Virus record (IMG/VR): IMGVR_UViG_3300026549_000047
Coordinates: 52,158 to 116,157 of that record
Direction: 5' to 3' (one strand)
Length of the DNA: 64,000 bases
From: a virus
Lineage: Duplodnaviria > Heunggongvirae > Uroviricota > Caudoviricetes
Part shown: positions 35,453 to 35,596 of the stretch, one piece after another
How positions within the stretch are numbered: the stretch's first letter is position 1
Layout of the letters: the number at the start of each line of letters is the position of its first letter
Notes under the pieces: generated by a model
Databases searched by the model: none
Seen by the model: the letters and a program-made list of their open reading frames with translations, nothing else
Told to the model about the DNA's origin: nothing
Made by a program: the position numbers and the translations under genes

Positions 35453-35596
35453 TCAATTACCAAACCTTTGTTTAGTATTAAGACTATATCTTCGTAAATA
35501 CATATAGTCGTTGGAGACATTCCTATCTTGCTGATTTGAACTTAATATCGTCCCAGCAATTAATACTTTTAACAGACCTGGAATTTAATCTGTTTG
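35453..35596 (-). mobile_element. group I mini-intron (beta intron 3, about 144 nt, ORF-less) inside the GDKxAGRHGNKGV catalytic-region motif
   Basis: Flanking exons join as ...IKRTNLMIG | LDGGKGVISKI, the same length as E. coli KMAGRHGNKGVISKI. The upstream frame is closed by TGA at 35453-55. The intron holds all four cores: P AUUGCUGGGA, Q AAAUCAGCAAG, R CCAACGACUAUAUG (35516-35503), S GAUAUAGUCUU (35490-35480), then P9 ACAAAggUUUGG. Confidence 0.65.

What the first reader, a model, noticed from the sequence alone, without database searches (positions are those of the whole stretch)
35453..35596. 144-nt intron splitting the invariant beta GDKxAGRHGNKGV motif
Exon codons ...NLMIG and LDGGKGVISKI... 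lie 144 nt apart. Joined, they have exactly the length and pattern of bacterial KMAGRHGNKGVISKI. The downstream frame is closed by TGA immediately before LDGG, so the spacer cannot be coding. The spacer contains P AUUGCUGGGA, Q AAAUCAGCAAG, R CCAACGACUAUAUG and S GAUAUAGUCUU in the right order, with only 16 nt between R and S. That leaves almost no room for P3'/P8, so it is a minimal core. Similar mini-introns of about 150-175 nt occur at 38058-38206 and 34695-34867.
Basis: partly seen in the sequence, partly recalled or inferred. Interest (0 to 1): 0.85.

Follow-up and report, generated by a model that had tools for sequence, protein, structure and literature searches.

The report
Miniature group I intron in RNAP
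A 139-base group I-type intron interrupts the catalytic motif of a giant phage's RNA polymerase beta gene; introns in these genes are known, but this one belongs to an unusually stripped-down family that lacks two standard helices and escapes routine detection.

Summary
There is a real intervening sequence here, but its boundaries differ from the finding. It is window 35587..35449 on the minus strand, 139 nt (not 144). It sits inside a Tyr codon (T|AT), and joining the exons gives GSKVTNR-Y-GGKGVISKI. A ~96% identical phage contig lacks exactly these 139 nt. 98 of 120 homologues match this motif uninterrupted, and AR9, LPJP1 and SA1 are also continuous here.

The insert has group I hallmarks. 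Its guide sequence pairs with the last 7 exon bases, with a U.G pair at the 5' splice site. It ends in G. It has P3, P4, P5, P6, P7 and P9, and the conserved J8/7 and P7 sequences. Comparison supports P1 (four different exon/guide pairs at this same site) and P3 (21 distinct helices in 26 non-redundant introns).

It has no P2, and only 3 nt (ACG) stand where P8 should be. Rfam scores it 16.8 bits against a cut-off of 50.

It is one of five introns (137, 1077, 139, 137 and 930 nt) in a single 1057-aa beta gene. Introns in the RNA polymerase genes of AR9-like jumbo phages are already known, and only the P2- and P8-less ~140-nt architecture appears undescribed. Splicing, and self-splicing in particular, is inferred and was not shown.

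The parts
35449..35587 (-). Intron I3, the target: 139 nt, ORF-less, 32% G+C. It begins after exon U35588 and ends with G35449.
   Evidence: L004 (~96% identical) lacks exactly this stretch. The joined exons give GSKVTNRYGGKGV, as in the homologues.
35588..35594 (-). P1, 5'-exon strand AACAGAU. Its last U forms the U.G pair at the 5' splice site.
   Evidence: P1 covaries among same-site introns: ACAGAU/GUCUGU, ACAGGU/GCCUGU, AUCGUU/GACGAU, CGGU/GCCG.
35571..35577 (-). Internal guide sequence GUCUGUU (intron positions 11-17), the 3' strand of P1.
   Evidence: The free-energy fold and RNAalifold both recover P1.
35579..35583 (-). Candidate P10 strand UUCCA (intron 5-9), complementary to 3'-exon bases +2..+6 UGGAG (35447..35443).
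   Evidence: Read from the sequence. It is not conserved in L006, so it is tentative.
35563..35568 (-). P3 5' strand AAGUAU (intron 20-25), followed by J3/4 UAA (35560-35562).
   Evidence: Own-partner (cognate) helices beat other introns' partners (non-cognate), with 0 of 20,000 permutations as good, always in the same register next to J3/4.
35528..35559 (-). P4-P5 domain. P4 is UUGCUG (35554-35559) paired with CAGCAA (35528-35533). P5 is GGAC (35550-35553) paired with GUUC (35538-35541).
   Evidence: P4 covaries across the family: UGCUG/CAGCA, UGCUA/UAGCA, UGCCG/CGGCA, AGCUG/CAGCU.
35516..35527 (-). P6 hairpin, GAUA paired with UGUC, with a GGAA loop (intron 61-72).
   Evidence: A P6 hairpin is present at this position in 24 of 26 family members with differing sequences (mean z -3.3). 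One search also predicts it.
35504..35509 (-).
   Evidence: It matches the Rfam group I consensus.
35496..35501 (-). P3 3' strand GUAUUU (intron 87-92), which forms a pseudoknot with P7.
35493..35495 (-). 3-nt linker ACG in the place where P8 normally sits.
   Evidence: Rfam's 57-position P8 block collapses to 2 nt. In 21 of 26 family members only 5-8 nt separate P3' from GAUAUAGUC.
35482..35492 (-).
35453..35481 (-). P9 hairpin (12 bp, AAAG loop). CUUG follows, ending in the terminal G at 35449.
38047..38183 (-). Intron I1: 137 nt, ORF-less, P8-less core. P1 is GCCAU/GUGGC.
   Evidence: Absent from L004 at exactly these boundaries.
36882..37958 (-). Intron I2: 1077 nt, same P8-less core, with a homing endonuclease ORF (36968-37873) in the P6 loop.
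   Evidence: The ORF matches PHROGs phrog_655 at E = 2e-33. L004 has an ORF-less version.
34725..34861 (-). Intron I4: 137 nt, ORF-less, P8-less core. P1 is AUAUCCCU/GGGGAUGU.
33679..34608 (-). Intron I5: 930 nt, homing endonuclease ORF (33763-34530). Its core keeps a 4-bp mini-P8.
   Evidence: Rfam group I match at 25.3 bits, E = 0.0034. The ORF matches phrog_655 at E = 2e-38.
33465..39058 (-). RNA polymerase beta-like gene of six exons: 39058-38184, 38046-37959, 36881-35588, 35448-34862, 34724-34609 and 33678-33465. The product is 1057 aa.
   Evidence: The spliced translation has no internal stop and is 76% identical end to end to the uninterrupted homologue P0007.

Best explanation
Window 35587..35449 (minus strand) is a 139-nt, ORF-less group I intron of a compact type. 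It lies inside the Tyr codon of the GSKVTNR-Y-GGKGV catalytic motif of a jumbo-phage RNA polymerase beta gene.

Proposed mechanism:
- The guide sequence GUCUGUU pairs with the last seven exon bases, AACAGAU, to form P1, with a U.G pair at the cleavage site.
- P3 (AAGUAU/GUAUUU) forms a pseudoknot with P7 (GACUAU/AUAGUC).
- Together with P4-P5, P6 and the conserved J8/7, these build the guanosine-binding catalytic core.
- A free guanosine attacks the 5' splice site. The freed exon end then attacks after the terminal G (35449). The exons are ligated and the reading frame is restored.

The intron has no P2, and a 3-nt linker replaces P8.

What is shown: the exact boundaries, the precise absence of the intron in a near-identical genome, and comparative support for P1, P3, P4 and P6.

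What is inferred: splicing itself, whether it is autonomous, and how the intron spreads. It has no endonuclease of its own. It probably spreads by recombination during co-infection, possibly helped by endonucleases acting in trans.
For: Boundaries and gene model:
- L004 (277-kb contig, ~96% identical) reads ...ACAAATCGTTATGGAGGT... (N-R-Y-G-G) and lacks exactly the 139 nt.
- AR9 gp089, LPJP1 and SA1 read GSK[ILV][TS]xRYG[NG]KG without interruption.
- 98 of 120 homologues match this motif continuously. One (P0115) is truncated exactly there.
- The six-exon model gives a 1057-aa protein that is 76% identical over its full length to P0007. All five introns follow the U|...G| rule.

RNA structure:
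- Five independent introns occupy this same site (139, 147, 145, 154 and 192 nt). They show four different exon/guide pairs.
- P1: own-partner (cognate) helices average 6.1 bp, against 2.9 bp with other introns' partners (non-cognate). Only 2 of 40,320 permutations do as well.
- P3: 21 distinct helices in 26 non-redundant introns. Cognate helices average 5.4 bp against 3.3 bp for non-cognate ones, with 0 of 20,000 permutations as good.
- P6 is a hairpin in 24 of 26 members.
- RNAalifold independently recovers P1, P4, P5, P6 and P7.
- Rfam's group I model aligns over its full length at 16.8 bits, E = 0.026.
- The free-energy fold has z = -3.2.

Context:
- I2, which carries a homing endonuclease, uses the same P8-less core.
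- Introns in RNA polymerase genes of AR9-like phages are documented (bioRxiv 10.1101/2020.12.14.422802; PMC12350094).
Against: - There is no RNA-level evidence: no cDNA and no transcriptome.
- The Rfam score is far below the gathering threshold (16.8 against 50). At that threshold no intron is reported anywhere in the window.
- P3 is weak (6 bp, all A-U or G.U, about -2 kcal/mol). P6 has only 4 bp. P5 is poorly supported across the family (12 of 26).
- P10 is not conserved in L006.
- P8, part of the canonical P3-P8 stack, is absent, so autonomous catalysis cannot be assumed.
Confidence: 0.9

Rival explanations
1. It is a group I-derived intron that cannot splice on its own. Having lost P2 and P8, it needs a phage or host protein, such as a maturase-like factor or an RNA chaperone, to fold and splice in the cell.
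For: - P8 and P2 are missing, and the helices are short and A+U-rich.
- The Rfam score is low.
- Many larger group I introns are known to depend on protein cofactors (PMC2813881).
Against: - The same P8-less core carries a homing endonuclease in I2, and it is very common: more than 118 stretches, and seven cores in this window. This argues for a working core, not a decayed one.
- P1, P3, P4, P6 and P7 are all under visible constraint.
- No candidate cofactor was identified.
Confidence: 0.35
2. The gene is truly split. Two separate polypeptides are made, as for the split beta and beta' subunits of AR9 and phiKZ, and the spacer is simply intergenic.
For: - AR9-type RNA polymerases are built from split subunits (PMC7598289).
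- An ATG (MPIMVENG) lies 15 codons downstream of the junction.
Against: - A split here would cut the invariant catalytic motif and discard the YGGKGVISKILPDSQ codons. These are kept in frame and are nearly identical to the intron-less allele.
- Relatives encode one continuous protein of about 1055 aa.
- The spacer carries a group I core whose guide sequence matches the exon.
- Nothing was seen upstream of LDGG that would start translation.
Confidence: 0.03
3. Ribosomes bypass the 139-nt gap during translation, as in T4 gene 60.
For: The reading frame is interrupted inside an essential gene and a stop codon follows. This resembles a coding gap only superficially.
Against: - From my own knowledge, the T4 gene 60 gap is 50 nt and needs matching take-off and landing codons. 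Here the gap is 139 nt and the junction lies within a codon (T|AT).
- The gap holds a conserved ribozyme core with covarying helices.
Confidence: 0.01
4. It is an assembly artefact or an inactivated pseudogene, and the beta gene is dead in this genome.
For: The window is of unknown origin, and its close relatives are metagenome assemblies.
Against: - Homologous inserts occur at the same codon in four independent assemblies.
- All six exons are intact and in frame after removal by group I rules, and are 76-99% identical to functional-looking homologues.
- Decay would not preserve this.
Confidence: 0.01

Closest known systems
Group I introns of Bacillus phage AR9/PBS1 (in RNA polymerase subunit, terminase, gyrase and protease genes)
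   Same: - Related uracil-DNA jumbo-phage lineage and the same kind of host genes. AR9 gp089 is the best-annotated homologue of this beta.
- Same P7 and J8/7 consensus (GACUAU...GAUAUAGUC).
- Several introns per gene, some carrying homing endonucleases.
   Different: - The AR9 cores examined (first 100 kb) have 83-134 nt between the P7 strands, so they keep full P7.1/P7.2/P3'/P8 regions. The target has 16 nt.
- AR9 beta is uninterrupted at this site and is split into two genes.
- From my recollection of the Lavysh et al. 2016 abstract, AR9 introns were shown to self-splice. That paper was not held in the library.
ORF-less introns of Staphylococcus jumbo phages (MarsHill, Madawaska, Machias), for example in gyrB
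   Same: - About 76% identical core and the same short P7 spacing (30 nt from GACUA to AGUC).
- About 155 nt, no ORF, and inserted in a catalytic motif (DAD|DDG of the Toprim domain).
   Different: - Different host gene and phage.
- In the deposited record and the preprint, these introns were inferred only from protein alignments. No intron class or structure was described.
Azoarcus pre-tRNA-Ile group I intron (205 nt). From my own knowledge it is usually cited as among the smallest natural self-splicing group I introns.
   Same: A compact group I ribozyme without large peripheral domains, with the same P3-P7 pseudoknot core logic.
   Different: - Azoarcus keeps P2 and P8, whose loop-receptor contact clamps the fold. 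The target lacks both and is about one third shorter.
- This comparison rests on my own knowledge and was not tested here.
Small 'degenerate' group I-like introns of fungal rDNA (56-81 nt; PMC3160393)
   Same: Much smaller than the usual group I length of more than 200 nt.
   Different: Those have lost most of the core. The target keeps a complete P3/P4/P6/P7 core and the conserved J8/7. It also interrupts a protein-coding phage gene, not rRNA.
Rfam RF00028 Intron_gpI
   Same: The model aligns over positions 1-253 and matches P1, P4/P5, the P7 strands, J8/7 and P9.
   Different: 16.8 bits against a gathering score of 50. The P2, part of the P3, the P6 and the P8 blocks are deleted. The intron is not reported at the curated threshold.

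Membership tests
Group I intron | The 5' splice site follows a U that forms a U.G wobble with the internal guide sequence (P1) | tested here: met
   The exon AACAGAU pairs with GUCUGUU, with U35588.G35577. P1 covaries with the exon in same-site introns and in the four other introns of the gene.
Group I intron | The intron ends in G, and the 3' splice site lies directly after it | tested here: met
   G35449. The junction is fixed by the intron-less allele. All nine introns examined end in G.
Group I intron | P3-P7 pseudoknot and P4-P6 domain in the canonical order | tested here: met
   - P3: (0 of 20,000 permutations).
- P4 covaries.
- P6 hairpin in 24 of 26.
- P7 is invariant, so it says nothing either way from covariation, but it matches the consensus.
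Group I intron | Conserved J8/7 and P7 (guanosine-binding) sequence | tested here: met
   CAACGACUAU...GAAGAUAUAGUCU aligns with high posterior probability to the Rfam consensus.
Group I intron | P8 hairpin between P3' and J8/7 (the P3-P8 stack) | tested here: not met
   Only ACG (35495-35493) lies there. Rfam's 57-position P8 block collapses to 2 nt. The same is true of 21 of 26 family members.
Group I intron | P2 between P1 and P3 (common but not universal, from my own knowledge) | tested here: not met
   Only 2-3 A residues separate P1 from P3. The same-site intron in L129 does have a P2-like hairpin.
Group I intron | Reaches the curated Rfam RF00028 gathering score | tested here: not met
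   16.8 bits against 50. There was no hit at the gathering threshold.
Group I intron | Guanosine-initiated self-splicing in vitro | not testable with these tools
   This needs transcription and splicing assays.
Subgroup IA2-type phage introns (T4, AR9-like) | P7.1/P7.2 insertion between P7 and P3' | tested here: not met
   Only AU separates P7 from P3'. AR9 cores have 83-134 nt there.
Group II intron | Domains D1-D6, including the catalytic D5 | tested here: not met
   No group II model matched at E <= 10 in 32000-41000 or in 35430-35610. 139 nt is far too short.
Split RNA polymerase subunit genes (AR9/phiKZ type) | Separate genes, each with its own start, encoding complete structural modules | tested here: not met
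   The break falls inside a codon of the catalytic motif. Relatives encode one protein of about 1055 aa.

The most novel reading that the evidence does not exclude
The 137-139-nt introns I1, I3 and I4, and the wider P2- and P8-less family in jumbo phages, are fully autonomous self-splicing ribozymes. That would make them the smallest natural group I ribozymes with a complete catalytic core. It would also show that the P3-P8 stack and the P2-P8 clamp are dispensable in nature.
Probability: 0.4. Interest if true: 0.7.

Novelty: new variant of a known kind. Interest (0 to 1): 0.5.

Why it matters
**For annotation.** This beta gene, and probably the neighbouring beta'-like gene, is cut into many ORF fragments by introns that the curated Rfam threshold does not report. 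Jumbo-phage RNA polymerase genes in metagenomes will therefore be mis-called as fragments.

**For RNA biology.** If these introns of about 140 nt splice on their own, they set a natural minimum for a group I ribozyme (P1, P3, P4-P6, P7, P9) without P2 or P8. That would make a convenient small model system.

**For phage evolution.**
- Genomes about 96% identical differ by the presence or absence of these introns.
- Four exon/guide pairs occur at one codon.
- Exon differences are enriched about 3.4-fold around the insertion site.

Together these point to active intron turnover at the polymerase's catalytic centre.

Tried and rejected
- **Alternative nested pairing.** GUAUUAA (before P4) could pair with UUAAUAC (after P7'), which would remove the pseudoknot. 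I rejected it. UUAAUAC belongs to a 12-bp P9 hairpin, and the canonical P3 register is the one that covaries across the family.
- **My first P6 (GGA/UCC).** I replaced it with GAUA/UGUC, which matches the family register of a hairpin ending 3 nt before AACGACUA.
- **Megablast of the region against deposited phages.** No match.
- **IMG/VR scans for same-site orthologues.** Two patterns gave none. The metagenome scan then gave three.
- **MAFFT alignment of 23 family members (A1).** It could not register P3', P5 or P6, so I did not build a covariance model from it. I used tests comparing each intron's own partner with other introns' partners, re-fitting the register each time.
- **First regex parsers for P4.** They dropped or mis-parsed members and were rewritten.
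- **Literature.** Lavysh et al. 2016 (AR9 genome) and the journal version of Korn et al. 2021 are not held. Phrase searches for very small or P8-less group I introns found only the 56-81-nt fungal cases and unrelated 'p8' proteins. The novelty claim therefore rests on finding nothing in a limited library.
- **Pfam on the intron ORFs.** It did not recognise them. PHROGs did.
- **AR9 genome.** Only its first 100 kb was scanned for cores.

Full report
**What the sequence shows.** On the minus strand the 440-codon ORF 36845..35523 reads ...RTNLMIGSKVTNRLNSRS...SAR* and stops. Further on, after a TGA, the frame LDGGKGVISKILPDSQMPIMVENG... opens and runs into ORF 35404..34793. So the raw observation is real.

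**The exon junction.** Joining T35588 to A35448 instead gives GSKVTNR-Y-GGKGVISKI, with the Tyr codon split T|AT. Several lines of evidence support this join:
- tblastn against deposited phages found single-piece matches across the site in AR9/PBS1, Staphylococcus jumbo phages and Listeria LPJP1.
- Their annotated, uninterrupted beta proteins read GSK[ILV][TS]xRYG[NG]KG[VI] there.
- The large protein database returned 263 relatives. Many are uninterrupted proteins of about 1055 aa at 55-75% identity.
- Of the 120 listed, 98 match G[ST]K[ILVM][TS]xR[YF]GGKG continuously.
- P0001 is 99% identical to the window and reads straight through the site. P0115 is truncated exactly there.

**The intron-less allele.** The contig encoding P0001 is L004 (ENA ERZ914843 scaffold_3, 276,920 bp). 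It is about 96% identical in DNA and lacks exactly window 35587..35449. It reads ...ACAAATCGTTATGGAGGT.... The insert is therefore 139 nt, and no alternative placement fits the sequence.

**The whole gene.** Mapping the full-length homologues P0007 and P0118 onto the window gives six exons. Splice sites chosen by group I rules, after a U and after a G, give a 3174-nt coding sequence. Its 1057-aa product has no internal stop and is 76% identical end to end to P0007. The five introns are:

| Intron | Window (minus strand) | Length | ORF |
|---|---|---|---|
| I1 | 38183-38047 | 137 nt | none |
| I2 | 37958-36882 | 1077 nt | homing endonuclease |
| I3 (target) | 35587-35449 | 139 nt | none |
| I4 | 34861-34725 | 137 nt | none |
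| I5 | 34608-33679 | 930 nt | homing endonuclease |

- The ORFs in I2 and I5 match homing and HNH endonuclease families in PHROGs (E = 2e-33 and 2e-38). Pfam does not recognise them.
- L004 also lacks I1 at exactly its boundaries. It has an ORF-less I2 and carries an extra ORF-containing intron elsewhere. This is the presence/absence pattern typical of mobile introns.
- Exon mismatches between the window and L004 reach 15% within 30 nt of the I3 site, against 4.4% elsewhere.

**Structure of the target** (intron numbering; window coordinate = 35588 - i):

| Element | Intron positions | Sequence or note |
|---|---|---|
| P1 | exon -7..-1 with 11-17 | AACAGAU/GUCUGUU, U.G at the splice site |
| P10 (candidate) | 3' exon +2..+6 with 5-9 | UGGAG/UUCCA |
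| P3 | 20-25 with 87-92 | AAGUAU/GUAUUU |
| J3/4 | 26-28 | UAA |
| P4 | 29-34 with 55-60 | UUGCUG/CAGCAA |
| P5 | 35-38 with 47-50 | GGAC/GUUC |
| P6 | 61-64 with 69-72 | GAUA/UGUC, GGAA loop |
| P7 | 79-84 with 101-106 | GACUAU/AUAGUC |
| J8/7 | 96-100 | AAGAU |
| P9 | 107-135 | 12 bp, AAAG loop |
| Terminal G | 139 | window 35449 |

There is no P2. Only ACG (93-95) lies where P8 should be. The free-energy fold recovers P1, P4-P5, P7 and P9 (z = -3.2).

**Rfam.**
- Searched on a 181-nt region, Rfam's group I model aligns over its full length at 16.8 bits (E = 0.026; gathering score 50). It collapses the P8 block to 2 nt.
- In a 9-kb search only I5 appeared, at 25.3 bits.
- At the gathering threshold the whole window yields three tRNAs and no intron.

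**Comparative support.**
- *Spread of the core.* The core pair AACGACTAT...GATATAGTC occurs about 12 times in the window. Most are on contigs of 200-400 kb.
- *Spacer length.* Among 89 unique instances the spacer between GACUAU and GAUAUAGUC is bimodal: 12-17 nt, with no room for P8 (the target has 13), and 20-24 nt, with a 2-3-bp mini-P8.
- *P3.* In 26 non-redundant introns P3 always lies in the same register, with 21 different sequences. Each intron's own (cognate) pairing averages 5.4 bp, against 3.3 bp with other introns' partners (non-cognate), with the register re-fitted each time. None of 20,000 permutations did as well. The energy version gives -3.22 against -1.18 kcal/mol.
- *P4, P6 and P5.* P4 shows compensatory variants. 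P6 is a hairpin in 24 of 26 members. P5 is weak, at 12 of 26.
- *Same-site introns.* Four further introns sit at exactly the same codon position in unrelated assemblies: L006 (147 nt), L130 (145), L129 (154) and L128 (192). Their guide sequences follow the synonymous codons of their own exons: ACAGAU/GUCUGU, ACAGGU/GCCUGU, CGGU/GCCG and AUCGUU/GACGAU.
- *P1.* Over eight distinct exon contexts, cognate P1 helices average 6.1 bp against 2.9 bp for non-cognate ones. Only 2 of 40,320 permutations reach the observed total.
- *Independent prediction.* RNAalifold on four same-site introns predicts P1, P4, P5, P6 and P7 without any input from my model.

**Interpretation.** This is a group I intron in mechanism and ancestry. 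Its 5' splice site follows a U.G pair and its 3' splice site follows a G. It has the P3/P7 pseudoknot, the P4-P6 domain and the guanosine-site consensus. It fails two features of the canonical architecture, P8 and the common P2, and it fails the curated Rfam threshold. I therefore file it as a structural variant and not as a routine member. The endonuclease-bearing I2 uses the same P8-less core, which argues that the core works and is not a decaying remnant. Whether it splices unaided cannot be decided here. I put autonomy at roughly 0.4-0.6, with dependence on a cofactor as the main rival.

**Comparison with what is known.**
- Introns that disrupt RNA polymerase, gyrase, terminase and polymerase genes are documented for AR9, with mature mRNAs determined experimentally, and are predicted for the MarsHill-like Staphylococcus jumbo phages (bioRxiv 10.1101/2020.12.14.422802; PMC12350094).
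- Reviews describe the targeting of conserved active-site codons by mobile introns as typical (PMC12908238).
- The AR9 cores I examined keep 83-134 nt between the P7 strands, so they are not of this compact type.
- The MarsHill gyrB intron is of this type: about 155 nt, a 76% similar core, and annotated only as a CDS join.
- The literature I could search gives more than 200 nt as the usual group I size and 56-81 nt for degenerate fungal inserts (PMC3160393). I found no description of a P8-less group I intron. The library is incomplete, so this is weak evidence of novelty.

**Verdict.**
- The phenomenon is known, and the compact architecture is a new variant.
- Interest is moderate.

Noticed in passing
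window 39702-46471 (minus strand); cores near 44651/44632, 43248/43228 and 40609/40589: A second fragmented gene region carries three more P8-less cores. ORF 45326-46471 has a weak Rpb1 domain 2 match, so this is probably the beta' gene. ORF 43280-44248 has TnsA-like endonuclease and NUMOD3 domains and is probably intron-borne.
   Followed up: partly
window 15992-16074 and 16501-16590 (plus strand); also 62577: Two larger group I cores have 74-81 nt between the P7 strands and resemble the AR9 type (GACUAUCCC...GGGAGUA). A lone R-type motif lies at 62577. None reaches the Rfam gathering score.
   Followed up: no
window 32821-33456 (minus strand): The ORF directly downstream of the beta gene has two H-x-T motifs (HITILY, HLTLAE) typical of 2H phosphoesterases. 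It matches PHROGs 'RNA ligase' (phrog_755, E = 3e-5) and, weakly, Pfam Acb1 (anti-CBASS). No link to the introns was established.
   Followed up: partly
window 33465-39058 compared with AR9 g105 and g089: Beta is one gene of 1057 aa here, but two separate genes in AR9. A review cites the idea that split jumbo-phage RNA polymerase genes arose through intron mobility (PMC7598289). The N-terminus of AR9 gp089 aligns about 90 residues downstream of the I2 site, so I saw no coincidence with an intron site.
   Followed up: partly
L004 5004-5961 (corresponds to window ~36527): The ~96% identical relative carries an extra ~960-nt insert with a 252-aa ORF between PGAERP and LVDTGN. The window lacks this insert. 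L004's I2 has no endonuclease ORF.
   Followed up: partly
L006 2484-3072 and L006 ~960-1160: This ~70% identical relative has further compact introns in the same gene. One lies at VVMNP|YSTINRK, and two adjacent cores lie near the I2 region.
   Followed up: no
L129 (same-site intron, 154 nt): Unlike the target, this orthologous-site intron has a P2-like hairpin (CAUAC-UGAAAAAA-GUAUG) between P1 and P3. P2 is therefore variably present within the lineage.
   Followed up: no
window 22343-22415, 23751-23822 and 25685-25757 (plus strand): Three tRNA genes were detected by Rfam at the gathering threshold.
   Followed up: no
window 35588-35600 compared with L004 6885-6895: The intron-containing allele uses AAC AGA for Asn-Arg, while the intron-less allele uses AAT CGT. 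AAT CGT cannot pair with this intron's guide sequence, but it is exactly the exon paired by the guide (GACGAU) of the different same-site intron in L128.
   Followed up: partly
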